Source: Nemertoderma westbladi | Lineage: Eukaryota > Animalia > Xenacoelomorpha | Reading direction: 5' to 3' | Length of the DNA stretch: 64,000 bases | Assembly (NCBI GenBank): GCA_032718475.1 | Contig: JAUCBJ010001497.1 | Location: 1 to 64,000 of the forward strand | Part shown: in pieces, positions 6,790 through 57,811 of the stretch | Position numbering within the stretch: position 1 is the stretch's first letter | Layout: the number at the start of each line of letters is the position of its first letter | Translations under genes and position numbers: made by a program | The notes under the pieces: generated by a model | The model's database searches: none | What the model was told of the DNA's origin: nothing | What the model saw: the letters and a program-made list of their open reading frames with translations, nothing else

Positions 6790-7195
6790 CAAACTTAGTT
6801 CCAATCGCACATTTTCAAATGCGAACTTAGTTCCAATTGAAACGAATTTAGTTCCAAAATAAATTTTACAAAGCGAATTTAGTTCCAATCGAGGCGAACT
6901 TAGTTCCAATCCCAGAATATAAAAACGAACTTAGTTCCAATGGATGCGAATTTAGTTCCAATGCATGCGAATTTAGTTCCAATGCATGCGAATTTAGTTC
7001 CAATGCATGCGAATTTAGTTCCAATGAAAGCGAATTTAGTTCCAATGCATGCGAATTTAGTTCCAATGCATGCGAATTTAGTTCCAATGCATGCGAATTT
7101 AGTTCCAATGAAAGCGAATTTAGTTCCAATGCAAGCGAATTTAGTTCCAATGGAAGCGAATTTAGTTCCAATGGGTACGAACTTAGTTCCAATGT
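6790..7195 (-). repeat. 21-bp minisatellite (ATTGGAACTAAATTCGCATGC-type), reverse orientation
   Basis: Tandem GCGAATTTAGTTCCAATGCAT units; these explain the spurious LELNSHA/ANLVPM ORFs. Confidence 0.95.
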
Positions 7196-8437: not shown

Positions 8438-9359
8438 AGGGTCAACAATAATTGCAATAAATTGTAAAATCCTTCCGTCATATTTAAAAAACGAAGTATT
8501 ATTAATGAATTAAATGTATAATTACACATTTTGAAATATATATTAATCACGAGTATACTGATACTGACTGACTGAGTCTGTAGTATTATATACTCAAGTC
8601 ATGCACATTGTGCCATTTTCACAGCAAATACAATATTTACCAGTTGTTTGGGTTAGGAGGTTGGGCGTTGTTTTTTACAATGAATATGATTTTAAATGAT
8701 TAAATATAAATGAATTTAATTGAATTGTTTGGGTTAAGGGGTTGGGCGTAGTTTGGGGTAAGATTGTTTTGGTTAGGAGGTTGGGCGTTTTGGGTTAGTT
8801 ATTTACAATTATTATTTAATCATCCACCTAATAGTGTCCTTAAACATTCTTCGCCAACTACGTGGCTCGCCCCACACCTGAAACATTGGAACTAAATTCG
8901 CTTCCATTGGAACTAAATTCGCTTGCATTGGAACTAAATTCGCATCAATTGGAACTAAATTCGCATCCATTGGAACTAAATTCGCTTGCATTGGAACTAA
9001 TTATAAATGAATTGTTGTGGGGTGGGTGACGGCGAATAAATATATATGTTATAGTACATTATGATAATGCTCTCCATAGCGAAAAATATCAACCGCCCCT
9101 ATTGGGGCTCGAACCCGGTACCTAGGTTTCAAACGGTTTATTCGCCGTCACCCACCCCACAACAATTCATTTATAATTAATTAACACGTATGGCCGGCAT
9201 ACGGGGTTACAGTGGTTTCTACAACACTGTATAATAGTTATTCTTTGAGGCATGGTTGCCATTTCTGGCAGAGCACGGGAATAACGTTGTACTTTACTAT
9301 GAGTGACGTAAAAAGGCCTAAAAATGATACCCCACTCCATAGCGAATAAATCTTCTACC

Positions 9360-9465
9360 GCCCTGGTAGCTCAGTGGTCTTAGGACACACACTCGGCTGA
9401 TGATAACCGGAAGTTTGAAACCTAGGTACCGGGTTCGAGCCCCAATAGGGGCGGTTGATATTTTT
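9360..9465 (+). promoter_or_regulatory. tRNA-like internal Pol III promoter (A box, B box) and T-run, repeated in each 370-bp unit
   Basis: GCCCTGG-TAGCTCAGTGG (A box 9367-9377), GGTTCGAGCCC (B box 9432-9442), acceptor-like pairing CCGCCCT/GGGGCGG, and TTTTT at 9461-9465. Confidence 0.8.
9391..9434 (+). ncRNA. Putative type I hammerhead ribozyme (first of five copies)
   Basis: Stem I ACUCGG/CCGGGU; core CUGAUGA (9397-9403); stem II AAC-CGGAA-GUU; GAAA (9417-9420); palindromic stem III ACCUAGGU; GUA cleavage triplet ending at 9428. The base of stem II is U.U rather than the usual G-C. Confidence 0.8.
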
Positions 9466-11723
9466 CGCTATGGAGAGCATTATCATAATGTACTATAACA
9501 TATATATTTATTCGCCGTCACCCACCCCACAACAATTCATTTATAATTAATTAACACGCATGGCCGGCATACGGGGTTACAGTGGTTTCTACAACACTGT
9601 ATAATAGTTATTCTTTGAGGCATGGTTGCCATTTCTGGCAGAGCACGGGAATAACGTTGTACTTTACTATGAGTGACGTAAAAAGGCCTAAAAATGATAC
9701 CCCACTCCATAGCGAATAAATCTTCTACCGCCCTGGTAGCTCAGTGGTCTTAGGACACACACTCGGCTGATGATAACCGGAAGTTTGAAACCTAGGTACC
9801 GGGTTCGAGCCCCAATAGGGGCGGTTGATATTTTTCGCTATGGAGAGCATTATCATAATGTACTATAACATATATATTTATTCGCCGTCACCCACCCCAC
9901 AACAATTCATTTATAATTAATTAACACGCATGGCCGGCATACGGGGTTACAGTGGTTTCTACAACACTGTATAATAGTTATTCTTTGAGGCATGGTTGCC
10001 ATTTCTGGCAGAGCACGGGAATAACGTTGTACTTTACTATGAGTGACGTAAAAAGGCCTAAAAATGATACCCCACTCCATAGCGAATAAATCTTCTACCG
10101 CCCTGGTAGCTCAGTGGTCTTAGGACACACACTCGGCTGATGATAACCGGAAGTTTGAAACCTAGGTACCGGGTTCGAGCCCCAATAGGGGCGGTTGATA
10201 TTTTTCGCTATGGAGAGCATTATCATAATGTACTATAACATATATATTTATTCGCCGTCACCCACCCCACAACAATTCATTTATAATTAATTAACACGCA
10301 TGGCCGGCATACGGGGTTACAGTGGTTTCTACAACACTGTATAATAGTTATTCTTTGAGGCATGGTTGCCATTTCTGGCAGAGCACGGGAATAACGTTGT
10401 ACTTTACTATGAGTGACGTAAAAAGGCCTAAAAATGATACCCCACTCCATAGCGAATAAATCTTCTACCGCCCTGGTAGCTCAGTGGTCTTAGGACACAC
10501 ACTCGGCTGATGATAACCGGAAGTTTGAAACCTAGGTACCGGGTTCGAGCCCCAATAGGGGCGGTTGATATTTTTCGCTATGGAGAGCATTATCATAATG
10601 TACTATAACATATATATTTATTCGCCGTCACCCACCCCACAACAATTCATTTATAATTAATTAACACGCATGGCCGGCATACGGGGTTACAGTGGTTTCT
10701 ACAACACTGTATAATAGTTATTCTTTGAGGCATGGTTGTCATTTCTGGCAGAGCACGGGAATAACGATGTACTTTACTATGAGTGACGTAAAAAGGCCTA
10801 AAAATGATACCCCACTCCACAGCGAATAAATCTTCTACCGCCCTGGTAGCTCAGTGGTCTTAGGACACACACTCGGCTGATGATAACCGGAAGTTTGAAA
10901 ACCTAGGTACCGGGTTCGAGCCCCAATAGGGGCGGTTGATATTTTTCGCTATGGAGAGCATTATCATAATGTACTATAACATATATATGCATTGGAACTA
11001 AGTTCGCATCCATTGGAACTAAATTTGCATCAATTGGAACTAAATTCGCATGCATTGGAACTAAATTCGTTTTAGTTTTTCTCTAATTATTGGAACCAAG
11101 TTCAAATTGGAACTAAATTCGCCAAAATTGGAACTAAATTCGTTTCCATTGGAAATAAATTCGCTTGCATTGGAACTAAGTTCGCATCCATTGGAACTAA
11201 ATTCGCTTCCATTGGAACTAAATTCGCTTCCATTGGAACTAAATTCGCTTGCATTGGAACTAAGTTCGCATCCATTGGAACTAAATTCGCATCCATTGGA
11301 ACTAAATTCGCTTGCATTGGAACTAAGTTCGCATCCATTGGAACTAAATTCGCATCAATTGGAACTAAATTCGCATCCATTGGAACTAAATTCGCATCAA
11401 TTGGAACTAAATTCGCATGCATTGGAACTAAATTCGTTTTCGTTTTTCTCTAATTATTGGAACAAAGTTCAAATTGGAACTAAATTCGCCAAAATTGGAA
11501 CTAAATTCGTTTCCATTGGAACTAAATTCGCTTGCATTGGAACTAAGTTCGCATCCATTGGAACTAAATTTGCTTCCATTGGAACTAAATTCGCTTCCAT
11601 TGGAACTAAATTCGCTTGCATTGGAACTAAGTTCGCATCCATTGGAACTAAATTCGCATCCATTGGAACTAAATTCGCTTGCATTGGAACTAAGTTCGCA
11701 TCCATTGGAACTAAATTCGCATC

Positions 11724-14700
11724 TGTACTATCTGATACTGGCGTACCACTGACTGACATACCAGCTACCTGCAAATGGCTGACAATTTTGATAATGTTAA
11801 AGATGATATATTGTCGTTATTCGCAGTAATAAAAACAAAGAAATATGTAACCTGTGACCAAGAGACCCAGCTGAGTGAACTATTAAGCGCTTTGACCTCG
11901 CTACACTCGAGGTCTCGAGATGATTTCACCGCAACTCTGGCAAATCTCGCCGAATCACGGAAAGAAACGGCGGATGCGCGAAAAGAAACTGTGGCCGCAA
12001 AGGACGAGCTCTTGAAGTTCCTGCAACTCGGCCCATCTACCATGGCTACTCCAGGACCCGGACCCGGCAGGTCAACATACAGTGCAGTCGTGCAAAGAAA
12101 CCCGGTTCCAGATCCACACTCACCGCCGTCGAATAACGGACCATACGCCACGGATACGGACCGCAACTTCCGTCGCCCCGCCCCGGCGATACAAGGTTGC
12201 AGAGCTGGTGGTCCACTTCGTGTTGCCAAAGGAAACCCAGTCCAAGCCGTCGGGAAGGCGCATGTTCATATCGGCCGACTAGACCCATCGACAAAAAGCA
12301 AGGAAGTTGCTGACTTTCTTCAATCCCAAGGAATCCCTTTCGACGACGTAACTCCACTACCGCTTAAAGATGGTAACTCACCTTATCTAAGTTTCCATAT
12401 CACATGCGATCAACAACATCGCGACACCCTAATGGACCCTGGATTGTGGGAAACGGGTCTCACAATCCGGAACTACTGACTCACGAACGCCGAACGCGAG
12501 GCACTCAGTCTACGTCGGCGCCCCGAACGCGAATTCGCTGGTGGAACCTCCAGCAGCTCACAGCAATACTCAACAAATACCGGTAACTAGGACAGGAGCA
12601 CGGAGGTACAACTACTTCTATGGAATGTGGAAGGTCTCCGCTATTTAGTAGACAATTTATCTGAATCTGAATTATATGGTAAGGCCAATGTCGTGTTATT
12701 TACTGAAACTATGTACACGGACAAAGCATTTTATTCTAACTCGTATTACTCTTTTACTCACCCTGCGACAAAGTTAAACAGACGGCGCCCTATTGGCGGC
12801 CTTATGACTCTGTGCAGGCCGCACCTCAACCCTTCCTGTGTGAAACAAACAAATAAATACATTGTTATCAAAACCTTGGTATCCTTCTTTATTGTTTTCT
12901 ATTTTACCCCCGAAACCCCACTGGATGAAATACTTATGGAAATAACTGAAGCACTGTCTTATACCAAAAACACAACCCCTATTGTTATAGCGGGAGATTT
13001 TAATTGCAGACTAGACCACGGATCTCGTGGTTCCGATTTAGTTGACGATCTGACCAACATCGGGTTTAGCTGTCTCAGCTCCCCGGATATCCCGACGTAC
13101 ATATCACCGCAAGGTGAAAGTGTAATCGATTTAATATTCGTGAGTTACCCAGCAATTGTTCCTACGTTGCTACCGCCTACAATAATCTTGTCAAATCCCA
13201 TAAGGAAACACCAGCCGGTGACCGTTAAGTTTGTTTTCCCTGCCGATATTCATGATTCAAAATTACCGAACCCCATTCCTCGTCTGTCGAGGCAGATCGA
13301 TCGTAACGCATTTATATCGCACCACAATATTCCAATGGTTAGGCTACTTCTATCTAACAACGAAATAGATGCAGCTACAGACCTACTGACTCTATCAATT
13401 GCAGACTCCACACCATCCACTCGCAAACCCCGCTATGGAAAACCGTGGTATGACTCGGAGTGCAAGACTCTAAAGAAACAGTTAATTCACTGTATGTCTC
13501 GTCGTAATCTCTCGGCAATGGACTGCTCGCAGTTTTGGAATATCCGCAAAAGCTACAAGTCGCTCCTCAAACGGAAACGAGTTGCCTACGAGGAAGCTAC
13601 ACTGGCAGAATTGGTCAGCGACTCCGAAGTTAAACCATGGTTAATCACCAAGGATCACAAACGGACTATTGCACCAATAGACTCAGATACACTCGAGACA
13701 CATTTCCGCAACCTTCTTGGTGTTAGAGTAGATCCCCCCAATGTTCTACCAGTTCCAATCCCTTCGTTGGATGAACTTGAGGGGGAGGAATGGTACAATG
13801 CGCCGATTACGGAAGAGGAAATATCCGCCAGTATAAACGACTCCAAGAATAACAAAGCTTCGGGTGTAGATGGAATATTCTACGATCATCTCAAGTTAAC
13901 CAAACCATTTATAATAACAATTCTCTGTCTATTATACAATGCCTGTCTCGATATCGGTAAACTACCGCAAATCTGGAAACAGTGTATAATAATGATCATC
14001 TATAAAGAAAGGGGCATTCTCAAACCCAGATAATTATCGCGGCATTGCACTCATCTCCGTGTTACTGAAAACTCTCACTTCAATCGTAAACAAACGCGTC
14101 CGATGCTTTACGTCTCACCGGATACCTAGGGAACAATACGGTTTCATGCCAAACAGATCTACATTACAGGCACTAAACGCACTTATATCCGATATCAATT
14201 TGGCTTTGCAATCCAATCTGTCATCACAACGGAAAATGTATGTCGCTTTTGTTGACTTTAGAAAGGCATTCGACTTTGTCAACAGAGCTGTTTTATTAAA
14301 TAAGATATATGGATTCGGGATTAAAGGAAAATTATTTGTTCTGATAAAAGATTTACTCCAAAATTACATTCAGGTGTACGACGGCCTTTGTCTATCGAAC
14401 CTAATCGAGCAACTCCGCGGAATTCTGCAGGGCGACTGCTTCTCTCCTCCATGTTTTAATTTCTTTATCGCCGACCTAGCTATAGCACTACGACAAGGAT
14501 GTGCGATTCTAAAGTTTCTATTTTTTGCTGACGATCTCGCTTTCTACTCTTCCGATAGGAATGAAATACAACGCGGCCTAGACATTCTCCTCGACTGGTG
14601 TACTCGTAACGGAATGGAAGTCAACCTCGACAAAACTAAAATTTTAAAATTCCGCAAAGGGGGTCGTCTCGCTACTACCGACACTTTTAGCTACAATGGA

Positions 14701-15579
14701 AATAGCGTCACCATCTGTAACAATTACGAATACCTAGGACTCACGCTTCAGCCATCACTTTGTTTCTCGCAGCACATTAAAAAAGAAGAAGAAAAAAGTT
14801 TATGCAACAATAGGGTCTATAAAGAATCTCAAGCTATTGTCCGTTGACGCAGGTTTAAAACTATTTAAATTAAAAATTGCACCAATGGCTTTGTATGCTC
14901 TACCCGTCTACTCTCGCTTTCTAACGATATCAAATTTAAAAGATCTAGACAGAATAAAATCGACATACATAAAGCGACTTCTAGGGCTACATATAAGTGC
15001 TTCGTCCACAATGGTGCTACACCTCGTAAACGAAAATTCGCTTATTGACGACATACTTCTAAAAGCTCCAAATCTATTCGCCCGCGACCTGATTGATCAA
15101 TATAATGCATTTCGAACAAATCGCGAACTCAATTTCGTTACTGAGAATTATTTACTCGGTCCTGCGTTCAATTCATTTACCTGGCGACTATCCAATCAGA
15201 AGAACTGTCATGTGGTCACGAGAGCCACGTGTCACGGGTTTCACCACAAAATATGCACGAACTCACAGCCTTTCCACACACTATCAACCGATTGTATTTG
15301 CCGATTTTGCCTTCTTCCCTGCCCAGACCGTTACCACGCCTTCTCTTGCGCCCAATGCCCCACAATGGCTGATCTCGCAACAAAACTCTAACATGCTAGC
15401 CCGCTCAGGCCACACCATAAGTAGTATATTGTCCCACTCGTGCTCCTAAGTAATCAATTAATACCAATGGTGATGGGTAATAATTGCAATTCAATTATAT
15501 TAATGTGCTAATAAATATATAATTAATATAATTGGTTACCTCGTTGGAGGTGTAAAGTGAAAAAAAAAATAAAAAAATA
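11724..15579 (+). mobile_element. Full-length APE-type LINE (CR1/L2 group, possibly Daphne-like): ORF1 plus frameshifted ORF2
   Basis: ORF1 11775-12479 (VHIGRLDP..PGLWETG). ORF2 pieces 12627-14033 (WNVEG, AGDFN, VIDLIF), 14059-14847 (QYGF, FVDFRKAFD, QGD, FADDL) and 14837-15391 (Cys/His-rich C-terminus). AATAAA, A-rich tail, and TSD AAATTCGCATC (11713-11723 / 15580-15590). Confidence 0.93.
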
Positions 15580-16225
15580 AAATTCGCATCAATTGGAACT
15601 AAATTCGTTTTCGTTTTTCTCTAATTATTGGAACCAAGTTCAAATTGGAACTAAATTCGCCAAAATTGGAACTAAATTCGCTTGCATTGGAACTAAATTC
15701 GCTTCCATTGGAACTAAATTCGCTTGCATTGGAACTAAGTTCGCATCCATTGGAACTAAATTCGTTTCCATTGGAACTAAATTCGCTTGCATTGGAACTA
15801 AGTTCGCATTCATTGGAACTAAATTCGCATCCATTGGAACTAAATTCGCTTGCATTGGAACTAAGTTCGCATCCATTGGAACTAAATTCGCATCAATTGG
15901 AACTAAATTCGCATCCATTGGAACTAAATTCGCATCAATTGGAACTAAATTCGCATGCATTGGAACTAAATTCGTTTTCGTTTTTCTCTAATTATTGGAA
16001 CAAAGTTCAAATTGGAACTAAATTCGCCAAAATTGGAACTAAATTCGTTTCCATTGGAACTAAATTCGTTTTCATTGGAACTAAATTCGCATGAGGCTTA
16101 AGTTGGAACTAAGTACGGGGAATCTTACAACATTGGTATATACAGTAGAAAGTGGAGCTTACTCAGAAGGTTTTACAACTTCCTAGAAATTATTTTTCAT
16201 ATATTTATATATTTACTTAAACCAG

Positions 16226-31749: not shown

Positions 31750-33253
31750 ACTTGAGCGGAAAAGGTGGCCAGTCTTTTACTTGAGCAGAAAAGGTGGCCA
31801 GTATTTTACTTGAGCAGAAAAGGTGGCCAGTCTTTTACTTGAGCAGAAAAGGTGGCCAGTCTTTTACTTGAGCAGAAAAGGTGGCCAGTCTTTTACTTGA
31901 GCAGAAAAGGTGGCCAGTCTTTTACTTGAGCAGAAAAGGTGGCCAGTCTTTTACTTGAACAGATAAGGTGGCCAGTCTTTTACTTGAGCAGAAAAGGTGG
32001 CCAGTCTTTTAGTTGAGCAGAAAAGGTGGCCAGTCTTTTACTTGAGCAGAAAAGGTGGCCAGTCTTTTACTTGAGCAGAAAAGGTGGCCAGTCTTTTACT
32101 TGAGCAGAAAAGGTGGCCAGTCTTTTACTTGAACAGATAAGGTGGCCAGTCTTTTACTTGAGCAGAAAAGGTGGCCAGTCTTTTAGTTGAGCAGAAAAAG
32201 TGGCCAGTCTTTTACTTGAGCAGAAAAGGTGGCCAGTCTTTTACTTGAGCAGAAAAGGTGGCCAGTCTTTTACTTGAGCAGAAAAGGTGGCCAGTCTTTT
32301 ACTTGAACAGATAAGGTGGCCAGTCTTTTACTTGAGCAGAAAAGGTGGCCAGTCTTTTACTTGAGCAGAAACGGTGGCCAGTCTTTTACTTGAACAGATA
32401 AGGTGGCCAGTCTTTTACTTGAACAGAAAAAATGGCCAGTCTTTTACTTGAGCAGAAAAGGTGGCCAGTCTTTTAGTGGAGCAGAAAAGGTGGCCAGTCT
32501 TTTACTTGAGCAGAAAAGGTGGCCAGTCTTTTACTTGAGCAGAAAAGGTGGCCAGTCTTTTACTTGAGCAGAAAAGGTGGCCAGTCTTTTACTTGAGCAG
32601 AAAAGGTGGCCAGTCTTTTACTTGAACAGATAAGGTGGCCAGTCTTTTACTTGAGCAGAAAAGGTGGCCAGTCTTTTAGTTGAGCAGAAAAAGTGGCCAG
32701 TCTTTTACTTGAGCAGAAAAGGTGGCCAGTCTTTTACTTGAGCAGAAAAAATGGCCAGTACTTGAGCAGAAAAGGTGGCCAGTCTTTTACTTGAGCAGAA
32801 AAGGTGGCCAGTCTTTTACTTGAGCAGAAACGGTGGCCAGTCTTTTACTTGAACAGATAAGGTGGACAGTCTTTTACTTGAGCAGAAAAGGTGGCCAGTC
32901 TTTTACTTGAGCAGAAAAGGTGGCCAGTCTTTTACTTGAGCAGAAAAGGTGGCCAGTCTTTTACTTGAACAGATAAGGTGGCCAGTCTTTTACTTGAGCA
33001 GAAAAGGTGGCCAGTCTTTTAGTTGAGCAGAAAAAGTGGCCAGTCTTTTACTTGAGCAGAAAAGGTGGCCAGTCTTTTACTTGAACAGATAAGGTGGCCA
33101 GTCTTTTACTTGAGCAGAAAAAATGGCCAGTCTTTTACTTGAGCAGAAAAGGTGGCCAGTCTTTTACTTGAGCAGAAAAGGTGGCCAGTCTTTTACTTGA
33201 ACAGATAAGGTGGCCAGTCTTTTACTTGAGCAGAAAAGGTGGCCAGTCTTTTA
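31750..33253. repeat. 29-bp minisatellite (intronic)
   Basis: Tandem CTTGAGCAGAAAAGGTGGCCAGTCTTTTA, about 50 copies. Confidence 0.97.
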
Positions 33254-33713
33254 CCGTCTTCTACAGGAAACTGGTAGGCCTATAATGTATCGGGATGGTT
33301 TTCCATTGCACCCTTGATATTATGTAATCCATTACATTAATAGTACATCAAATTCATATATAACCCATGATATAGATAGTATGCTCTCTATTGTTTTGGA
33401 GACATACCGACGGACAGACCGACAGTTAAACCGACATAGAGAGATATGTCGAAAATTAAAGTAATCTTGCTAAATGGTTTTCAAACTTTGAATCTTGATA
33501 GAATTCTGCTCTAGAAAAAATTGTAAATAAATGCCACAATAATATAGTAAATACCACAATAAATGCCACAATAGTAAAACGCAAAAACGTAAAACGCAAA
33601 ATAAAACGATTTATTTATGACTTTTATAAAAGGAACTTAAATGAAATATTAAATTATGGTTTGGTCTATAACTTCGATTAGTATCGGTATCACTTTATGG
33701 TCTATAAACTTAC

Positions 33714-33845
33714 ATCGTTAGGTAAGAACGGTGAAGATTCGTGGGTTTCTATGAATGACTCGGTAATGTTATGAGGCGTAACCTTAGGGGTGTAATTCAA
33801 TGTGAGATCCGTGTCAATAGATTCCCTTGGAAACCACCTGGATTT
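33714..33845 (-). CDS. Secreted helical-cytokine-like protein, coding exon 2
   Basis: TTTTTGTTCCAG acceptor, GTAAGT donor, 132 nt = 44 codons: KSRWFPRESIDTDLTLNYTPKVTPHNITESFIETHESSPFLPND. Too short to appear in the ORF track. Confidence 0.78.
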
Positions 33846-34068
33846 CTGGAACAAAAATAATATCATTAAATGTTAACATCAATAATAAATAAGTGAAATG
33901 GGAATTTAACTTAGTAAAGGATTCAGGGGTTAAGGGAGAAATTGGAATATTGGAAAGTTGGTGCTTTCTTTGGGAACAAGGAATTTATGTTTAATTGTTA
34001 TAATTAAATTATCGGAAGTAATATTTTACTTAATCAATGTAAATAAAACAATCAGAATCAAGTTTAAC

Positions 34069-36845
34069 GGCCCATGTGAAGAATACCAGACTTTCTGCTG
34101 TTATATTTCACTTTACAGTTACCCCCATGTGAAGAATACCAGAATTTCTGCCGTTATATTTAACTTTGCAGTTACCCCCATGTGAAGAATACCAGACTTT
34201 CTGCTGTTATATTTCACTTTACAGTTACCCCCATGTGAAGAATACCAGAATTTCTGCCGTTATATTTAACTTTGCAGTTACCCCCATGTGAAGAATACCA
34301 GACTTTCTGCCGTTATATTTCACTTTGCAGTTACCCCCATGTGAAGAATACCATACTTTCTGCCGTTATATTTCACTTTGCAGTTACCCCCATGTGAAGA
34401 ATACCAGACTTTCTGCTGTTATATTTCACTTTACAGTTACCCCCATGTGAAGAATACCAGAATTTCTGCCGTTATATTTAACTTTGCAGTTACCCCCATG
34501 TGAAGAATACCAGACTTTCTGCCGTTATATTTCACTTTGCAGTTACCCCCATGTGAAGAATACCAGACTTTCTGCTGTTATATTTCACTTTGCAGTTACC
34601 CCCATGTGAAGATACCAGACTTTCTGCCGTTATATTTAACTTTGCAGTTACCCCCATGTGAAGAATACCAGACTTTCTGCCGTTATATTTCACTTTGCAG
34701 TTACCCCCATGTGAAGAATACCAGACTTTCTGCCGTTATATTTCACTTTGCAGTTACCCCCATGTGAAGAATACCAGACTTTCTGCCGTTATATTTCACT
34801 TTGCAGTTACCCCCATGTGAAGAATACCAGACTTTCTGCCGTTATATTTCACTTTGCAGTTACCCCCATGTGAAGAATACCAGACTTTCTGCCGTTATAT
34901 TTCACTTTGCAGTTACCCCCATGTGAAGAATACCAGACTTTCTGCCGTTATATTTCACTTTGCAGTTACCCCCATGTGAAGAATACCAGACTTTCTGCCG
35001 TTATATTTCACTTTGCAGTTACCCCCATGTGAAGAATACCAGACTTTCTGCCGTTATATTTCACTTTGCAGTTACCCCCATGTGAAGAATACCAGACTTT
35101 CTGCCGTTATATTTCACTTTGCAGTTACCCCCATGTGAAGAATACCAGACTTTCTGCCGTTATATTTCACTTTGCAGTTACCCCCATGTGAAGAATACCA
35201 TACTTTCTGCCGTTATATTTCACTTTGCAGTTACCCCCATGTGAAGAATACCAGACTTTCTGCTGTTATATTTCACTTTACAGTTACCCCCATGTGAAGT
35301 ATACCAGACTTTCTGCCGTTATATTTAACTTTGCAGTTACCCCCATGTGAAGAATACCAGACTTTCTGCCGTTATATTTCACTTTGCAGTTACCCCCATG
35401 TGAAGAATACCAGACTTTCTGCCGTTATATTTCACTTTGCAGTTACCCCCATGTGAAGAATACCAGACTTTCTGCCGTTATATTTCACTTTGCAGTTACC
35501 CCCATGTGAAGAATACCAGACTTTCTGCCGTTATATTTCACTTTGCAGTTACCCCCATGTGAAGAATACCAGACTTTCTGCCGTTATATTTCACTTTGCA
35601 GTTACCCCCATGTGAAGAATACCAGACTTTCTGCCGTTATATTTCACTTTGCAGTTACCCCCATGTGAAGAATACCAGACTTTCTGCCGTTATATTTCAC
35701 TTTGCAGTTACCCCCATGTGAAGAATACCAGACTTTCTGCCGTTATATTTCACTTTGCAGTTACCCCCATGTGAAGAATACCAGACTTTCTGCCGTTATA
35801 TTTCACTTTGCAGTTACCCCCATGTGAAGAATACCAGACTTTCTGCCGTTATATTTCACTTTGCAGTTACCCCCATGTGAAGAATACCAGACTTTCTGCC
35901 GTTATATTTCACTTTGCAGTTACCCCCATGTGAAGAATACCAGACTTTCTGCCGTTATATTTCACTTTGCAGTTACCCCCATGTGAAGAATACCAGACTT
36001 TCTGCTGTTATATTTCACTTTGCAGTTACCCCCATGTGAAGAATACCAGACTTTCTGCCGTTTTATTTCACTTTGCAGTTACCCCCATGTGAAGAATACC
36101 AGACTTTCTGCCGTTATATTTCACTTTGCAGTTACCCCCATGTGAAGTATACCAGACTTTCTGCCGTTATATTTAACTTTGCAGTTACCCCCATGTGAAG
36201 AATACCAGACTTTCTGCCGTTATATTTCACTTTGCAGTTACCCCCATGTGAAGAATACCAGACTTTCTGCTGTTATATTTCACTTTGCAGTTACGCCCAT
36301 GTGAAGAATACCAGACTTTCTGCTGTTATATTTCACTTTGCAGTTACCCCCATGTGAAGAATACCAGACTTTCTGCCGTTATATTTCACTTTGCAGTTAC
36401 CCCCATGTGAAGAATACCAGACTTTCTGCCGTTATATTTCACTTTGCAGTTACCCCCATGTGAAGAATACCAGACTTTCTGCTGTTATATTTCACTTTGC
36501 AGTTACCCCCATATGTGAAGTATACCAGAATTTCTGCTGTTATATTTAACTTTGCAGTTACCCCCATGTGAACAATACCATAATTTCTGCTGTTATATTT
36601 CACTTTGCAGTTACCCCCATGTGAAGAATACCAGAATTTCTGCTGTTATATTTCACTTTGCAGTTACCCCCATGTAAAGAATACCAGAATTTCTGCTGTT
36701 ATATTTAACTTTGCAGTTACCCCCATGTGAAGTATACCAGAATTTCTGCTGTTATATTTCACTTTGCAGTTACCCCCATGTGAAGAATACCACACTTTCT
36801 GCCGTTATATTTCACTTTGCAGTTACCCCCATGTGAAGAATACCC
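34069..36845. repeat. 53-bp satellite array (intronic)
   Basis: Tandem CCCATGTGAAGAATACCAGACTTTCTGCCGTTATATTTCACTTTGCAGTTACC, about 52 copies. Confidence 0.97.
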
Positions 36846-47270: not shown

Positions 47271-48512
47271 TCAAATCGAACTGATACCATATTCATCCTC
47301 CATCATCTTCATATATGCCGCTACAGCTGCCTTGCGGTACACACCCATAGCCATACTAGAGTCTTTGTGCTTAGCTGTCAGTTCCATTAACATTCGATCA
47401 ATTCTATTTTCATCATCACACAAATATATAAAACACTTTACTTTATTCGCGTTTGTTTTAATTGAATTTTTATCTAAGCAGTCGGAATTTATTCGCTTTT
47501 TAGTTTCTCTAAATACTTTTAATTCTCTCTCCATTCTCTCAAAACCAAATATTTCTATTTTATCCCAAAGTGTTTTATTGAAGTGTTTGTAAAGTTTCCA
47601 ATCTCCGATATTTATATTTCTGAGTTTTTCTGTATCAAAAATATCCAGTTTTTGATTTTGCACACCTTTACTCCTATAAACGACGTCTTCAAATTCCCAA
47701 CACATTAAATCTTTCAACAAAATCATCGATTCGTCAAAATATTCCAATAAAATCACCAAATCAAATTCCTCATCAATCTCTTTTATAATATCATCATAAT
47801 CACTATCATTGGGTGAATTTACATTATAGCCGAATTCGTATAACAAAGGATTTAAAAACGACCTATAATTGAGCATAGTGCCATTTGGATTACTAATGAA
47901 ATATTCATAAATATCTTTTGTAGTATTGAGTGCTAACTCATTTGCGTCACGAAAATTTGAATATGGAGCATAATAAGTCATGTAGGATTTGATGACATTT
48001 GAAGGGTCACGAATTCCAACAATATACATGGTATCTGGTGGCATCAACTTTTTTACATCAATGTTAAATTTTCCGTGTAGAAATGAAACATTAGGATGTT
48101 GTGTGAACTGGTTTAAATGTTCGCCCCACCAGTAACTCCATTGCCGACCTCTACATTTCGCAAATGATTCTTCATCGGACAGAGCGGGTGTTAGATTGTG
48201 ATTAATAGCGTGATTAATAATCACAGAAACTGTGGTACGGGACCCAGTTCGGTGGGTCTTCAAGTAAAAAACATTCATTTTCGTTTTGCAACTTCCATTC
48301 AATTGTGTCACATTTGTTTCATTCTCTTCCACAAAGTTTTGAGCCGTAGTATACATTTGCATTCCTACTGAACTATAAGATATATTGTTGTCCAATTGTT
48401 TCACATACTTGTACACAAGTATAAGCATTGCTATAAGTATAAGCATAAAAGTGGATAAAGTTAATTTTCGAAAAGTCACATTATTGAGGTACATGTTTCG
48501 TTCCATACACAT
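47271..48512 (-). CDS. Galactose-3-O-sulfotransferase (GAL3ST/cerebroside sulfotransferase) family, type II membrane protein; uninterrupted CDS
   Basis: N-terminal TM (TLSTFMLILIAMLILVY), 5'-PSB FYLKTHRTGSRT, 3'-PB IRDPSNVIKS, FDLVILLEYFDESMILLKDLMCW, DWKLYKHFNKTLW. First ATG is at 48512; the true start is uncertain. Confidence 0.92.
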   Translation of the reverse strand: MCMERNMYLNNVTFRKLTLSTFMLILIAMLILVYKYVKQLDNNISYSSVGMQMYTTAQNFVEENETNVTQLNGSCKTKMNVFYLKTHRTGSRTTVSVIINHAINHNLTPALSDEESFAKCRGRQWSYWWGEHLNQFTQHPNVSFLHGKFNIDVKKLMPPDTMYIVGIRDPSNVIKSYMTYYAPYSNFRDANELALNTTKDIYEYFISNPNGTMLNYRSFLNPLLYEFGYNVNSPNDSDYDDIIKEIDEEFDLVILLEYFDESMILLKDLMCWEFEDVVYRSKGVQNQKLDIFDTEKLRNINIGDWKLYKHFNKTLWDKIEIFGFERMERELKVFRETKKRINSDCLDKNSIKTNANKVKCFIYLCDDENRIDRMLMELTAKHKDSSMAMGVYRKAAVAAYMKMMEDEYGISSI

Positions 48513-48739
48513 AAATTCGAGCAATGGAATCAATCATAAAGTATTATATGGTTTAAAATTCGAATGAAACTTAGAAATTTATTATTTAATTTATTTAATT
48601 GTCAACAAACTAAATTGCAACTGAGACCAGATCAGTTGACAACAGTCATTTGATATGGCCTATACATTGTTGCTACCAGTAAGTACACCTGTAGAACGGT
48701 GTGAATATTTAGGGCATATCTTTCATAGTTCAACTTGTG

Positions 48740-49115: not shown

Positions 49116-49536
49116 AGTTTTTGCATAACAATTATATTGCAATTCGTTATGGTCTAACTAAACAGGTTGCTAGGAGTAGGTTGCTAGGAGTTTAGGTTGC
49201 TACAACAACCTAGACAGTTATTGGCTTTAAATACGACTGCAGTGTCTCTAATATGCTTGATGTTCTGAATAATATTCAGTATGATACACAATTCCAAATT
49301 TACGCATTTCTCAATTTTTAATTTGGGTATTTCGACATTCATGCAAAATTCTGACTTTGTATATCAATAACAGAAAACAATAATGGTCTGAGATTTTTAA
49401 ATTTCGTTTGTGAATAAAGGGGGATAAATATATTACAAATATGAATTTGATTACATTAGTGTTGCAATAAGTTTGAAATATGTGTAAAGGACTGCAAAGT
49501 TATAACATTGAGTTATAGTATACAATCTGAAATAAA

Positions 49537-50535
49537 AATACTAACGGTATGCTAACTATAATACCAACTGAGGATATTAAATACTAACGGTATGCTAACT
49601 ATAATACCAACTGAGGATATTAAATACTAACGGTATGCTAACTATAATACCAACTGAGGATATTAAATACTAACGGTATGCTAACTATTATACTAACTGA
49701 GGATATTAAATACTAACGGTATGCTAACTATAATACTAACTGAGGATATTAAATACTAACGGTATGCTAACTATAATACCAACTGAGGATATTAAATACT
49801 AACGGTATGCTAACTATAATACTAACTGAGGATATTAAATACTAACGGTATGCTAACTATAATACCAACTGAGGATATTAAATACTAACGGTATGCTAAC
49901 TATAATACCAACTGAGGATATTAAATACTAACGGTATGCTAACTATAATACCAACTGAGGATATTAAATACTAACGGTATGCTAACTATAATACTAACTG
50001 AGGATATTAAATACTAACGGTATGCTAACTATAATACCAACTGAGGATATTAAATACTAACGGTATGCTAACTATAATACTAACTGAGGATATTAAATAC
50101 TAACGGTATGCTAACTATAATACCAACTGAGGATATTAAATACTAACGGTATGCTAACTATAATACTAACTGAGAATATTAAATACTAACGGTATGCTAA
50201 CTATAATACCAACTGAGGATATTAAATACTAACGGTATGCTAACTATAATACCAACTGAGGATATTAAATACTAACGGTATGCTAACTATAATACTAACT
50301 GAGGATATTAAATACTAACGGTATGCTAACTATAATACCAACTGAGGATATTAAATACTAACGGTATGCTAACTATAATACTAACTGAGGATATTAAATA
50401 CTAACGGTATGCTAACTATAATACTAACTGAGGATATTAAATATTAACGGTATGCTAACTATAATACCAACTGAGGATATTAAATACTAACGGTATGCTA
50501 ACTATAATACTAACTGAGGATATTAAATACTAACT
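49537..50535. repeat. 43-bp minisatellite
   Basis: Tandem AATACTAACGGTATGCTAACTATAATACYAACTGAGGATATTA, about 23 copies. Confidence 0.96.
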
Positions 50536-53879: not shown

Positions 53880-54764
53880 ATGTCGAATTCTCAAGAAAAA
53901 CCACAATTGAATTTGTCAGATCTCGCCGGAATATCGAAACAACAATTTCTAGCAAAGATTACAAAGGAACGATTGTACGAAGCATTACAATCCGCAGGAC
54001 TTCTCGATGACTCAAGGGATACTCAACTGAACGAGACAAGTTCACAGCAATGCAAATCAGATATGGCCACCATAATCCGTGATGCAATTCGTATCGAGTT
54101 GGCGGATGTTAAGGGCGAAATCTCTGGCGTTAATAAGAAACTAGACGAGCTGGGTGCTCTACGATCAAAAGTAACGGCGCTAAACGACGTGGTTGACAAC
54201 GTGAAGAAAGATAATGCAAAACTACGCAGCGAGGTAGAAGGTTGTAAAGATGTTATAGCAAAACAGCAGCGTCAACTAGAAGTTTTTGACACTGACAGAA
54301 GATCGAAGAATATAATTATTCGTGGGATACCAGAAATAAATCCAGAAGTAGATCGCGCATTTTCAATAAAGATATTGAAGATTGCCGGCATGGAGAACCC
54401 TAACAACGTTTCGTTTAGACGATTAGGACGACAGTCAGATACAACTAATGGGACACAACAGGGTGGGAGTGCCCCGAGTCGTCCTCGACCGGTGTTAGTT
54501 GAGCTGGAGTCTCGCTATATTCGTGATAAGCTACTAGTTGGTGCCAAATCGTTGTCTAAGGCAGGAGAGGAATTTCACAACGTATATATTAAACGAGATG
54601 AGATACCCCAGACCCTTGAAATGAATAGCAAACTGTATAAAGCGCTGCACGAGGAGAAACAGAAGCCCGTCAATATCAATGCAAACGTATTTATTAACTG
54701 GCGTACAAGGTGTGTGATGAGGGATAATACTGTATTATTTCAGGTACCCAAATTGGGTTTTTAA
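53880..54764 (+). CDS. LINE ORF1p (coiled coil plus L1-type RRM-like region)
   Basis: Heptad region followed by RSKNIIIRGIPE..FRRLGR..RPRPVLVEL..VYIKRD. Confidence 0.88.
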   Translation: MSNSQEKPQLNLSDLAGISKQQFLAKITKERLYEALQSAGLLDDSRDTQLNETSSQQCKSDMATIIRDAIRIELADVKGEISGVNKKLDELGALRSKVTALNDVVDNVKKDNAKLRSEVEGCKDVIAKQQRQLEVFDTDRRSKNIIIRGIPEINPEVDRAFSIKILKIAGMENPNNVSFRRLGRQSDTTNGTQQGGSAPSRPRPVLVELESRYIRDKLLVGAKSLSKAGEEFHNVYIKRDEIPQTLEMNSKLYKALHEEKQKPVNINANVFINWRTRCVMRDNTVLFQVPKLGF

Positions 54765-57700
54765 TAGGGCCGTGTGTAGATCTTAACATTCTTTGGTTTA
54801 ATATCGCTGGAATTCAGAATAAGTTAGAAAATAGAAATACTGTACACTTTTTACTCCAATTTGACATTATATTTTTATTGGAAATTAATAGTGCTTTGAA
54901 TTTTACTGTACCTGGGCTCAAGTTTTTAAAGCGAAGTAAAATTTTACAAGGCAGAGGCCACCGTGGCGGTGTGGCTCTATTTGCCAAACCGTTTTTAGAG
55001 GATTTTATTACTGAAATAAAAGACAATTATGAGGACCAGTTGTGGATAAAAATACCTACCGTAGATTCAAGGTATATCGGAGGATGTTACATCCCCAATA
55101 GCAGTTCAAAATTTTTTGATATATCATGTATTGGGATTATTCAGGGTATGTTTATGTCTGGGGATGCCCTATTGGCCGGAGGTGATTTAAACAGTAGAAT
55201 TGGTTACCCCGGTTGCCAACCGCTGGATGGGGCCTATAAAACCTGGCCAGATAATACTGTAAATAGCCATGGAAAAATATTGAAACAAATGTGTACTGAC
55301 ACGGATGCAGTTATTGTGAACGGTTTAAAAGTACCATCATGTGATTTTCAGAGTGGTCTAACTTATAAAATAAAAGGAGTATGGAAGTCAGCTTTGGACT
55401 ATATAATAGTAGCGAGGTCTCACGTAGAAGGTCCCAACAATAAACTCAGGTCATTAACTATTTGGTCTGACATAACCTTACCATCTGATCATGCACCAAT
55501 TAGTATATCTATTAGAGCAAACGAGATGCCTCTGGCACTATTAGATAAGCGAGCAACGAGTTTAGGTACCTATGACAATTACCTTAAAAGAGGGCACGAG
55601 GTAGCACATCGATTGAAGCCAAACCAAAACAGTGTATCCAACTATACCCAGTATATGCGAGTCAATAACCCACCGCCGTCATTGAGTATAAACATGAGTG
55701 ATGTGCATTTCATTTGTAACGAACTTAGTAACCAATTATATGCTGCAGCAAAAACAACCCGTTGTAGGATAAAGGCGAGAGCTGGCAGTACCGACACCAC
55801 ATCTTGGGGGAATGAGAGGTGGAACCACTTACTTGCATGTAAAGACTCTAAAGCGTTATGGGCTGCCATTGATTGGAGAGGTAATGTATCTACGCTGTCA
55901 ACTCAAACAGATAGTCCAACATGCCCAACAGACGATGAATTTCAAGCTCATTACAATGCGCTATTAAATGATCCTGAGTATATAGAAGAGCAAATTGAAT
56001 CTGAAATTAATATCCCTCTTTTAGATGAAGATATAACAATCAATGAAGTCAATGACGCAGCCTCGAAACTGAAATCGAACCGTGCTAGCGGTCCAGATGG
56101 ATTGGCATCCGAATATTTGAAATCACTTCCAATGAACTGGCTGATTACTTTAACAATGATATTTAACTTGGTATTCTCTTCTAGAATTTACCCAAACACA
56201 TGGGCATATGCTACACTTGTGTCAATCTTTAAGAAAGGAAATCGAATGTTATGTTCGAATTATAGGGGGATCAGTGTCATGAACTGTATACCTAAGCTTT
56301 ATGATATGATATTAACTAGTAGGCTCATGGCCTGGTATAAACCATTACCTGAGCAAGCAGGTGCTAGTAAGGGCCGAGGATGTATTGAGCAAATTCTGGC
56401 GATACGATTGCTTTGTGATCATGCGAGGAAATGTAAAGCTATACTCTATGTGGTCTTTGTAGATTTCGAAAAGGCCTATGACAATGTTAATCGTAACTAC
56501 ATGTTTGAAATGTTGAATAAGCTTGGCTGTGGTTCTAGAATGCTTAGAGCTTTACAGGCTATGTATAAGACAACTATTGCTTCAGTCCACTCACTATATA
56601 TTATTTGTAATAAAGGCGTCCGCCAAGGTTCACCAGGAAGCTTATACTTGTTCGTAACCATTATTGATTGTTTTGTAAGAGCACTTAAAAAGCTCCCACC
56701 CGATAGCTGGCTCAGAAAGCTCCACAGTGTACTACTTATGGATGATACTGCAATAATGGGAACATCTAGGGAGGCAATTATTGTGAAATTAAAAGTGCTT
56801 GAGGAATTCTGCCGGACTTCTGGGATGATCATCAATATTAAGAAAACCAAATTTATTGTAATAAACGGAACTGACGATGACAAACGCGACTTCATTATTG
56901 GGAACAAAGCAATAAAAAATACAAATTCATATATATATCTGGGCTCACCTATTTCTGCAGACGGTTTAGTTTCAACCGCAATAGAGCTGATAGCAAAGGA
57001 GAAACAGTCGCACTTATTGAAATTCTCTACATTCATCAATAAGAACCCTGATGTACCATTCCGTGTGAAAAGGAAAATTTTTGATGCTGCCTTAGTATCA
57101 GCAATTACATATGGGTGCGAAACATGGTGCGGTGGGTCAATAGTTCCAATGACGAAGATTTACATGTCAATGGTACGTCTGTTATTGGGTGTCCGACCAA
57201 CAACGTGTGGCGACATTTGCCTGATCGAGCTCGGTATTCCTGACTTTGAGACTTTAGTCCTGGACAAACAACGAAAATTCTTAAATAACTTCACTATTGT
57301 CGATGATTCCCCTCTAAAGATAGCTATGGAACTCGTTGAAGTTTCTAGAAGTCCAATGTACCTAGCTATGGAGAGGGTAAGGAAACTGCCCAATAATTAC
57401 CTTGATCAGCAGCATTCAAAACTCACGAAATCGGTAGTAACATCAATGACAACAAAACGTCACCTTTATAAACTAATGAACCCTACTACGTCACCACCTC
57501 ATTTATACTTTGATCCAAGGGTTCCAGAACGTCATAGGATATCCTGGTCCCGCTTCAGATTAGGCAGCCACAATTTCCCAGTTGAGCGAATGCGGTGGGC
57601 GAGAGTGAAACCAGAGGAGCGTTGGTGTCAGTGCGGGGCAATTCAAACTGAACAGCACTTAGTTACGGAGTGTCCTAAAACACTGAAACATAGAACAGAG

Positions 57701-57811
57701 ACAGAGGGGTGTACTGGAACGGCTTGGAACGATCTGGCTAGTTTATTTGCTTTGGAAAACCAGCCTGCTATAGCCAAAATGATTTATAAAATAAACGGCG
57801 AATTTGATTGA
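54755..57811 (+). CDS. LINE ORF2p (APE endonuclease, reverse transcriptase, C-terminal zinc knuckle); start mechanism uncertain
   Basis: WFNIAG, GGDLNSR, LDYII, SDHAPI, NYRGIS, FVDFEKAYD, GVRQG, LMDDT, CQCGAIQTEQHLVTEC. The frame is open from 54728 with no early ATG. Confidence 0.92.
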   Translation, partial: GFLIGPCVDLNILWFNIAGIQNKLENRNTVHFLLQFDIIFLLEINSALNFTVPGLKFLKRSKILQGRGHRGGVALFAKPFLEDFITEIKDNYEDQLWIKIPTVDSRYIGGCYIPNSSSKFFDISCIGIIQGMFMSGDALLAGGDLNSRIGYPGCQPLDGAYKTWPDNTVNSHGKILKQMCTDTDAVIVNGLKVPSCDFQSGLTYKIKGVWKSALDYIIVARSHVEGPNNKLRSLTIWSDITLPSDHAPISISIRANEMPLALLDKRATSLGTYDNYLKRGHEVAHRLKPNQNSVSNYTQYMRVNNPPPSLSINMSDVHFICNELSNQLYAAAKTTRCRIKARAGSTDTTSWGNERWNHLLACKDSKALWAAIDWRGNVSTLSTQTDSPTCPTDDEFQAHYNALLNDPEYIEEQIESEINIPLLDEDITINEVNDAASKLKSNRASGPDGLASEYLKSLPMNWLITLTMIFNLVFSSRIYPNTWAYATLVSIFKKGNRMLCSNYRGISVMNCIPKLYDMILTSRLMAWYKPLPEQAGASKGRGCIEQILAIRLLCDHARKCKAILYVVFVDFEKAYDNVNRNYMFEMLNKLGCGSRMLRALQAMYKTTIASVHSLYIICNKGVRQGSPGSLYLFVTIIDCFVRALKKLPPDSWLRKLHSVLLMDDTAIMGTSREAIIVKLKVLEEFCRTSGMIINIKKTKFIVINGTDDDKRDFIIGNKAIKNTNSYIYLGSPISADGLVSTAIELIAKEKQSHLLKFSTFINKNPDVPFRVKRKIFDAALVSAITYGCETWCGGSIVPMTKIYMSMVRLLLGVRPTTCGDICLIELGIPDFETLVLDKQRKFLNNFTIVDDSPLKIAMELVEVSRSPMYLAMERVRKLPNNYLDQQHSKLTKSVVTSMTTKRHLYKLMNPTTSPPHLYFDPRVPERHRISWSRFRLGSHNFPVERMRWARVKPEERWCQCGAIQTEQHLVTECPKTLKHRTETEGCTGTAWNDLASLFALENQPAIAKMIYKINGEFD

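What the first reader, a model, noticed from the sequence alone, without database searches (positions are those of the whole stretch)
9417..9442. Palindromic stem III and T-arm overlap suggest dimer-dependent, switchable cleavage
Seen: stem III is the self-complementary octamer ACCUAGGU, too tight for a stable hairpin. The 3' strand of stem I (CCGGGU, 9429-9434) is also the 5' side of the tRNA T-arm/B box. Known: minimal type I hammerheads of Penelope-like elements and newt satellite 2 have very short stem III and cleave as double hammerheads. Inference: adjacent units pair through ACCUAGGU so that only multimers cleave, while a short Pol III transcript ending at TTTTT (9461-9465) could take an alternative tRNA-like fold.
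Basis: partly seen in the sequence, partly recalled or inferred. Interest (0 to 1): 0.7.

Follow-up and report, generated by a model that had tools for sequence, protein, structure and literature searches.

The report
Self-cutting ribozyme nested inside tRNA promoter
A high-copy 370-base repeat in a probably animal genome carries a hammerhead (self-cutting RNA) motif between, and overlapping, the two boxes of a decayed tRNA-type promoter; neighbouring units are predicted to pair through a short palindrome to cut better as a pair, a known trick, while the proposed switch to a tRNA-like shape is not supported by folding models or by family variation.

Summary
The coordinates and motifs are correct. 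The site is a type I hammerhead in each unit of a 5 x 370-bp array. The array has an inverted arm and a 12-bp duplication, like Penelope-mobilised non-LTR retrozymes, and the family is abundant in DNA runs from three studies. A palindromic, weak helix III that works through a double hammerhead is described in print. With the family's two common variants combined (linkage unknown), tandem dimers are predicted to fold into that double hammerhead (P 0.48-0.99). The window's own copies are not (P 0.0) and look misfolded. 'Only multimers' is too strong: an axolotl ribozyme of the same build cleaved 22% in 1 h as a monomer. The tRNA-like fold is not supported: T-arm P<0.001, and common variants break the acceptor and anticodon-like stems. 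The unusual part is the layout. The ribozyme sits inside a tRNA-derived gene, its stem I overlaps the B box, and the predicted cut falls between boxes A and B. In Schistosoma Sm-alpha, by a review's account, the promoter precedes the ribozyme. This scan noted tRNA-promoter retrozymes on other DNA. Transcription and cleavage are untested.

The parts
9137..10988 (+). Direct array of five 370-bp units (retrozyme-like), 43% GC
   Evidence: TRF period 370, 5.0 copies, 99% matches; units differ at 0-4 positions; GC
9000..9134 (-). Inverted, truncated arm: exact reverse complement of unit positions 9413-9547; its outer end lies 40 bp beyond the phase at which the direct arm ends
   Evidence: family contigs run into unrelated flanks near 9495-9501 and 9549-9550 (table 7)
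8988..8999 (+). Left copy of a 12-bp duplication (candidate target-site duplication inside a 21-bp satellite; ambiguous because the target is periodic)
   Evidence: satellite
10989..11000 (+). Right copy of the 12-bp duplication
9360..9453 (+). Decayed tRNA gene frame: acceptor 5' strand 9360-9366, acceptor 3' strand 9446-9452, both halves in tRNA register, with extra sequence in the anticodon/variable region
   Evidence: ARAGORN at 90% threshold with intron option: 'possible pseudogene'; about 1% of 2000 shuffles give any call; none at the default threshold
9367..9377 (+). Pol III A box (TAGCTCAGTGG)
   Evidence: A box plus B box at 25-70 nt spacing in 23 of 20000 shuffles
9376..9384 (+). Strand that can pair with 9421-9430 and block the palindrome and cut site (predicted; not beyond chance)
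   Evidence: P=0.66 in the window's 151-nt fold, 0.04 with both common variants; 575 of 5000 shuffles bind as well
9391..9396 (+). Hammerhead stem I, 5' strand
   Evidence: pairs 9429-9434; common variant T9393C turns U.G into C-G
9397..9420 (+). Core CUGAUGA, weak stem II (U.U at base, 3 pairs, 5-nt loop), GAAA
9420..9427 (+). Helix III (2 bp) plus palindromic loop CUAG = self-complementary octamer; predicted inter-unit pairing site
   Evidence: no variant at 1% or more listed
9428..9429 (+). Predicted cleavage site (after GUA), 3 nt upstream of the B box and between the A and B boxes
   Evidence: position follows from the hammerhead consensus alignment; cleavage not shown
9429..9442 (+). Stem I 3' strand (9429-9434) overlapping the T-arm remnant and B box (9432-9442)
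   Evidence: strict B box in 29 of 20000 shuffles; no variant at 1% or more listed
9461..9465 (+). T5: candidate Pol III terminator, the only run of 4 or more T on the + strand of the unit; also part of the long closing stem
   Evidence: shuffles give a mean of 2.0 such runs and at most one in 32%, so no depletion is shown
9335..9475 (+). Long closing helix (about 9335-9366 with 9443-9475) that encloses the tRNA/ribozyme module; its 5' arm lies upstream of the predicted Pol III start
   Evidence: fold z=-4.94, 0 of 200 shuffles as good
10877..10915 (+). Fifth hammerhead copy with an extra A in the GAAA core (likely impaired)

Best explanation
The site is the weak, palindromic helix III of a type I hammerhead motif nested inside a decayed tRNA gene in each unit of a high-copy retrozyme-like repeat, and neighbouring units in a multimeric RNA are predicted to pair through it so that they likely cut more efficiently as a double hammerhead, with no tRNA-like conformational switch. 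Shown: the motif anatomy, the tandem array with inverted arm, family abundance, and invariance of the palindrome and B-box/stem I segment in two runs. Predicted by folding: the double hammerhead in family-variant dimers, and misfolding of this window's copies. Inferred: Pol III starts near 9360 from the A/B boxes and some transcripts read through T5. Cuts after 9428 and 9798 release a 370-nt unit held end to end by stem I and the long helix. It is ligated to a circle and copied by a Penelope-type reverse transcriptase into tandem or inverted insertions. The cut lies between the boxes, so a cleaved unit carries B before A, and only circle- or multimer-derived copies would restore a promoter. 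The overlap with the T-arm is best read as dual use of one sequence (B box in DNA, stem I in RNA).
For: Core and stems. Family: 4 of 9 listed runs hold at least half the words, from 3 studies, one possibly the source sample; 1711, 882 and 97 contigs laid. Shares of summed contig depth (not copy frequencies): T9393C 55-69% (consistent change in stem I), G9409A 47-70% (loop 2), G9451C 57-61% and G9451T 15-21%. No variant at 1% or more is listed between 9410 and about 9445 (2 runs). Folding: double minus two singles is -5.8 kcal/mol. With 9393C+9409A the inter-unit palindrome has P 0.99, 0.48, 0.87 and 0.80 in 4 of 4 dimer stretches, and inter-unit pairings persist in a trimer. T-arm P is 0.0 in all of these. 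Precedent: PMC4209133 (part 1 of 4 and passages), PMC7229834 (parts 2-4 of 6 and passages; HHR_Amex2 has the same build), PMC3088659 (passages). Inverted truncated copy and 30-40-bp tail are Penelope marks (10.1101/2021.04.23.441226, passages). Promoter boxes: 23 of 20000 shuffles.
Against: The window's own sequence forms neither the single nor the double hammerhead in unconstrained folds (P 0.0 for the palindrome; stem I 0.004). Either variant alone does not form it (P 0.03 or less). Linkage of the two variants could not be read from contig tables. Nearest-neighbour energies ignore tertiary contacts and co-transcriptional order. Coral and mussel retrozymes cleave as monomers at 0.8 and 0.1 per min. 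T5 in every unit should limit Pol III read-through, and the long helix needs sequence upstream of the predicted start, so a Pol II or read-through source is possible. The Rfam match is below gathering score. No Penelope ORF was recognised in the window (23 of 31 ORFs scanned) and no genome was held.
Confidence: 0.6

Rival explanations
1. Ordinary invertebrate-type retrozyme whose hammerhead cleaves well as a monomer through loop 1/loop 2 contacts; the palindromic loop is an inherited consensus feature of little regulatory weight.
For: A 2-bp helix III plus tetraloop is described as the more stable, invertebrate-like type, and coral and mussel monomers cleave co-transcriptionally (PMC7229834). 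With both common variants the 151-nt monomer forms stem I at P=0.77. A palindromic tetraloop arises 1 time in 16 by chance.
Against: Stem II is weak with U.U at its base, as in HHR_Amex2, which is poor as a monomer. The hairpin is +2.0 kcal/mol. The loop is invariant at the 1% level while loop 2 varies. The double form is favoured in dimers.
Confidence: 0.22
2. One reading: only multimers cleave, and a roughly 105-nt Pol III RNA folds as a tRNA mimic that switches the ribozyme off.
For: A box, B box and T5 are placed as in a Pol III gene. Stem I and T-arm are mutually exclusive. The 105-nt RNA is not predicted to form stem I in the window copy (P about 0.0001).
Against: T-arm P<0.001 with only 3 of 5 pairs, D stem 3 of 4, acceptor 5 of 7. 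Cloverleaf -10.3 against -31.5 kcal/mol. Common variants break the acceptor and anticodon-like stems. The predicted off-state is a different fold.
Confidence: 0.06
3. The boxes are a relic and the units are transcribed by Pol II or read-through; this array may also be a dead, misfolding subfamily amplified passively.
For: T5 would stop Pol III in each unit. The long helix spans the predicted start. Window copies are predicted blocked. Newt satellite transcripts appear to be Pol II products (PMC6765202 passage).
Against: Both boxes match consensus although the tRNA stems have decayed. No B-box variant at 1% or more is listed, though ribozyme constraint could explain part of that. The five units are 99% identical in a clean insertion.
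Confidence: 0.12

Closest known systems
Metazoan non-LTR retrozymes (Cervera and de la Pena 2020, PMC7229834, parts 2-4 of 6 and passages; Li, Clavereau, Pollet 2026, 10.64898/2026.07.22.740005, abstract, Results part 1 of 2 and passages)
   Same: Tandem 150-450-bp non-coding units, GC below 50%, one type I hammerhead per unit, no LTR/PBS/PPT seen, longer duplication at the ends; axolotl HHR_Amex2 has the same 2-bp helix III and U.U at the base of helix II.
   Different: Here the ribozyme is nested in a tRNA-derived A/B-box module. 'Pol III' has 0 occurrences in PMC7229834; 'tRNA', 'promoter' and 'Pol III' have 0 in the preprint. Expression and circles are not shown here.
Schistosoma Sm-alpha/Sj-alpha tRNA-derived SINE-like hammerhead repeats (PMC6765202 and PMC2770079, passages; the primary paper PMC108972 was not held)
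   Same: tRNA-derived, apparently Pol III-driven tandem repeat with a hammerhead; single cleaved copies lose their promoter logic, so tandems are needed.
   Different: The review describes a promoter followed by the hammerhead. Here the hammerhead lies between the boxes and overlaps box B, so the cut would split the promoter sequence. I could not check the Sm-alpha layout base by base.
Double hammerheads of newt satellite 2, avocado sunblotch viroid and Penelope-like elements (PMC4209133, PMC6155905, PMC6466107, PMC3088659; passages)
   Same: Short helix III with a palindromic loop; two copies form a shared, longer helix III.
   Different: Helix III here has 2 bp plus 4 nt, not the 1-bp or loop-less minimal form; helix II is short rather than the 7-8 bp of PLE minimal motifs; the unit has no coding region.

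Membership tests
Type I hammerhead ribozyme | Core CUGANGA, GAAA, NUH with stems I-III, open stem I | tested here: met
   Rfam HH9 E=0.0083 but below gathering score
Type I hammerhead ribozyme | G10.1-C11.1 pair at the base of helix II | tested here: not met
   U.U at 9404/9416; the same deviation is reported for active HHR_Amex2
Type I hammerhead ribozyme | Stem support from family variation | tested here: inconclusive
   one consistent one-sided change (T9393C) and an invariant core; no two-sided compensatory change seen
Type I hammerhead ribozyme | Self-cleavage | not testable with these tools
   no raw RNA reads or assay
Double (dimeric) hammerhead | Unstable helix III with self-complementary loop, tandem copies | tested here: met
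   +2.0 hairpin against -11.4 duplex; 370-bp tandem
Double (dimeric) hammerhead | Dimer fold preferred in context | tested here: inconclusive
   P 0.48-0.99 with both common variants, 0.0 for the window copy
Non-LTR retrozyme | 150-450-bp non-coding tandem units with one type I hammerhead, GC below 50%, high copy | tested here: met
   no ORF of 150 aa or more in the array
Non-LTR retrozyme | Expressed as unit-length linear and circular RNA | not testable with these tools
   only contig data were available
Penelope-mobilised insertion | Partial tandem, inverted truncated arm, 30-40-bp tail, variable duplication | tested here: met
   family end points and opposite-strand joints near 9409-9438; description
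Penelope-mobilised insertion | Autonomous partner with a related pLTR in the genome | not testable with these tools
   no genome held; Pfam shows RVT_1/AP-endonuclease hits but no GIY-YIG in 23 ORFs
tRNA-derived Pol III element (SINE/Sm-alpha type) | A box and B box in tRNA register | tested here: met
tRNA-derived Pol III element (SINE/Sm-alpha type) | Pol III transcription | not testable with these tools
   needs 5'-end mapping or occupancy data
tRNA-like structure (cloverleaf mimic) | Stable, conserved acceptor, D, anticodon and T arms | tested here: not met

The most novel reading that the evidence does not exclude
A self-promoting retrozyme in which the hammerhead was built inside a tRNA gene and shares bases with the B box. 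Short Pol III transcripts ending at T5 hold one ribozyme and cut poorly, while read-through multimers form double hammerheads and cut between boxes A and B. The promoter is thereby permuted in every cleaved unit and restored only through circle- or multimer-templated reverse transcription, which couples termination leakiness, dimer-gated cleavage and tandem amplification.
Probability: 0.25. Interest if true: 0.72.

Novelty: new variant of a known kind. Interest (0 to 1): 0.45.

Why it matters
How animal retrozymes are transcribed is not addressed in the two retrozyme papers read here. This family offers an explicit candidate promoter that overlaps its ribozyme, so single-base changes can separate the DNA role (B box) from the RNA role (stem I). 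It also offers natural variants predicted to differ sharply in folding (double hammerhead against blocked), a ready test of whether dimer-gated cleavage is under selection. The dimer mechanism itself is long known, and the proposed tRNA-fold switch does not hold up.

Tried and rejected
No whole genome was held, so copy number, variant linkage and an autonomous partner could not be tested. Rfam at gathering score: 0 hits; the MIR946 hit is just the inverted arm. ARAGORN default: 0 tRNAs. The relaxed setting gives 16 calls in the window, mostly long-intron noise, so the tRNA type (Pro) is not trusted. A profile from 14 tRNAs in fetched loci ranked the five units and the inverted arm first but only at E 0.065-0.46. 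Viral contigs: 0. Runs X7 and X8 (other organisms): 0 contigs laid. No RNA holder was listed; X5 (RNA guessed, another organism, 3 contigs) is uninformative. The blocking strand 9376-9384 as a selected switch: 575 of 5000 shuffles bind as well, so it is not claimed. TGACGTAA at 9304 as a promoter element: commonly altered at 9308-9310 in the family, rejected. Cofolding two free window-copy monomers gave no palindrome pairing. Papers not held: PMC108972, PMC5785218, PMC3334697. No supplements were read, and those of PMC7229834 may show retrozyme sequences with tRNA-like parts. Seven paper searches listed no title or abstract describing a hammerhead nested between A and B boxes; this is weak evidence of absence.

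Full report
Observation. They lie in a type I hammerhead: stem I 9391-9396/9429-9434, CUGAUGA 9397-9403, a weak stem II with U.U at its base, GAAA, a 2-bp helix III with loop CUAG, and a predicted cut after GUA at 9428. The core pattern occurs 4 times against 0.04 expected, and a fifth copy has an extra A. Rfam HH9 matches at E=0.0083, below its gathering score. The octamer is unstable as a hairpin (+2.0) and stable as a duplex (-11.4 kcal/mol). Only its central four bases carry information about palindromy, since the outer pairs are helix III itself.

Context. The motif repeats in a 5 x 370-bp, 99% identical array at 9137-10988, set in a 21-bp satellite. Directly to its left is an inverted 135-bp piece equal to unit positions 9413-9547, and 12 bp are duplicated across the insertion (ambiguous because the target is periodic). 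The two outer ends differ by 40 bp. Family contigs also leave the unit near 9500 and 9550, and show opposite-strand joints near 9409-9438. Partial tandems, an inverted truncated copy and a 30-40-bp tail are described marks of Penelope-like insertions (passages). The window is repeat-rich with decayed reverse-transcriptase ORFs and a sulfotransferase ORF, so the host is probably an animal (inference). No genome was held. Of 9 listed runs, 4 hold at least half the words; they are of one organism and three studies, and one may be the source sample. laid 97-1711 contigs per run for those four, which indicates a large, diverse family.

tRNA ancestry versus tRNA fold. The A box (9367-9377) and B box (9432-9442) match consensus, and the pair occurs in 23 of 20000 shuffles. 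Both tRNA halves are in register. ARAGORN calls a possible pseudogene only at a relaxed threshold, where about 1% of 2000 shuffles give a call. So ancestry from a tRNA gene is well supported, but the fold has decayed: T stem 3 of 5, D stem 3 of 4, acceptor 5 of 7. A cloverleaf scores -10.3 against an MFE of -31.5 for the 105-nt RNA. T-arm probability is below 0.001 in the monomer folds and 0.0 in the tandem folds. Family variation points the same way. By summed contig depth (not copy frequency), G9451C/T reaches about 73-82% and breaks the acceptor register. G9409A reaches 47-70% and breaks the anticodon-like stem while sitting harmlessly in hammerhead loop 2. T9393C reaches 55-69% and converts the U.G of hammerhead stem I to C-G. 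In one search (two runs, 1% threshold) only four positions were listed (9393, 9395, 9401, 9409) and none from 9410 to about 9445. Positions near the ends of that stretch are not reported, contigs drop rare variants, and hid 29 rows. I conclude that selection has kept the ribozyme fold and the B-box sequence, not a tRNA fold.

Dimer model. In the natural tandem, a constrained double hammerhead is 5.8 kcal/mol better than two single ones. Unconstrained, the window's sequence forms neither. In the 151-nt monomer it prefers a state in which 9376-9384 pairs over the palindrome and cut site (P=0.66), a pairing that is not beyond chance (575 of 5000). With both common variants applied, the monomer forms stem I (P=0.77). 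Tandem dimers then fold into the full double hammerhead with swapped stems I in 4 of 4 stretches tried (palindrome P 0.99, 0.48, 0.87, 0.80; 0.89-0.99 in the three of them where 9451C was added). In a trimer, pairing shifts partly to units 1 and 3. Either variant alone gives P of 0.03 or less. Whether the two variants are linked could not be read. These are equilibrium nearest-neighbour results without tertiary contacts or folding kinetics. They support the dimer route for a common form of the family and suggest that this window's copies are poor cleavers.

Literature. A short helix III with a palindromic loop working through a dimer is described as the usual state of metazoan type I hammerheads (PMC4209133, PMC3088659 Fig. 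S8 legend). In PMC7229834 coral and mussel retrozymes cleave as monomers (0.8 and 0.1 per min). Axolotl HHR_Amex2, with the same 2-bp helix III and U.U in helix II, cleaves 22% in 1 h alone and much better as a dimer. So 'dimer-enhanced' is the defensible claim, not 'only multimers'. Schistosome Sm-alpha is a tRNA-derived, apparently Pol III-driven hammerhead repeat, drawn as promoter followed by ribozyme; I could not read the primary paper. A 2026 preprint links retrozymes to Penelope-like elements and does not mention promoters. Seven searches found no listing of a hammerhead nested between A and B boxes. Earlier notes of this scan describe tRNA-bearing or tRNA-promoter retrozymes in other genomes; they are unchecked and were used as leads only.

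Mechanism. Most likely (0.6): transcripts spanning two or more units form double hammerheads, are cut after each GUA, and yield 370-nt units whose ends are held together by stem I and a long helix (z=-4.94). These would be circularised and copied by a Penelope-type enzyme (inferred from insertion shape and literature). The A/B boxes probably drive transcription. T5 is the only T-run on the strand and lies 19 nt past the B box, as a terminator would. It is also part of the long helix, whose 5' arm lies upstream of the predicted start, so multimers need read-through or another promoter. Because the cut falls between the boxes, each cleaved unit carries them in reversed order, and only tandem copies regain an A-B promoter.

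Verdict. The dimer part is plausible and known, the exclusivity is overstated, and the tRNA-fold switch is unsupported. The nested, overlapping promoter-ribozyme layout makes this a new variant of a known kind. Interest 0.45.

Noticed in passing
window 8884-9000, 10990-11723, 15644-16092, 6926-7194: A 21-bp satellite recurs in several blocks on both strands; the retrozyme array is inserted into one of them.
   Followed up: partly
window 10877-10915: The last unit has an extra A in the hammerhead GAAA core plus three substitutions, whereas units 2-4 are identical.
   Followed up: partly
window 9369-9372 and 9437-9440: In long folds the A-box GCUC (old D-stem strand) pairs with the B-box GAGC, extending stem I beyond its internal loop, so both promoter boxes may also serve as RNA structure.
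   Followed up: partly
window 9392-9445 (tables 5 and 5c): One contig in each of runs X1 and X2 replaces this stretch with a short piece ending in a different stem I and CUGAUG start, hinting at a recombinant with a second hammerhead family in the same organism.
   Followed up: no
window 47271-48533 (-): Intron-less 420-aa ORF matching galactose-3-O-sulfotransferase (E=3.6e-53) amid repeats.
   Followed up: no
window 54728-57811 (+) and 12591-14847 (+): Long reverse-transcriptase ORFs (1027 aa; AP endonuclease plus RT in two frames), probably LINE-type elements.
   Followed up: no
window 31750-36844, 49536-50534, 58173-64000: Large homogeneous minisatellite arrays with 29-, 53-, 43- and 53-bp units.
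   Followed up: no
L025 (-), around 276-318: A tRNA gene with an apparent anticodon-loop intron that happens to contain hammerhead-like core words but no stems; treated as a chance match.
   Followed up: partly
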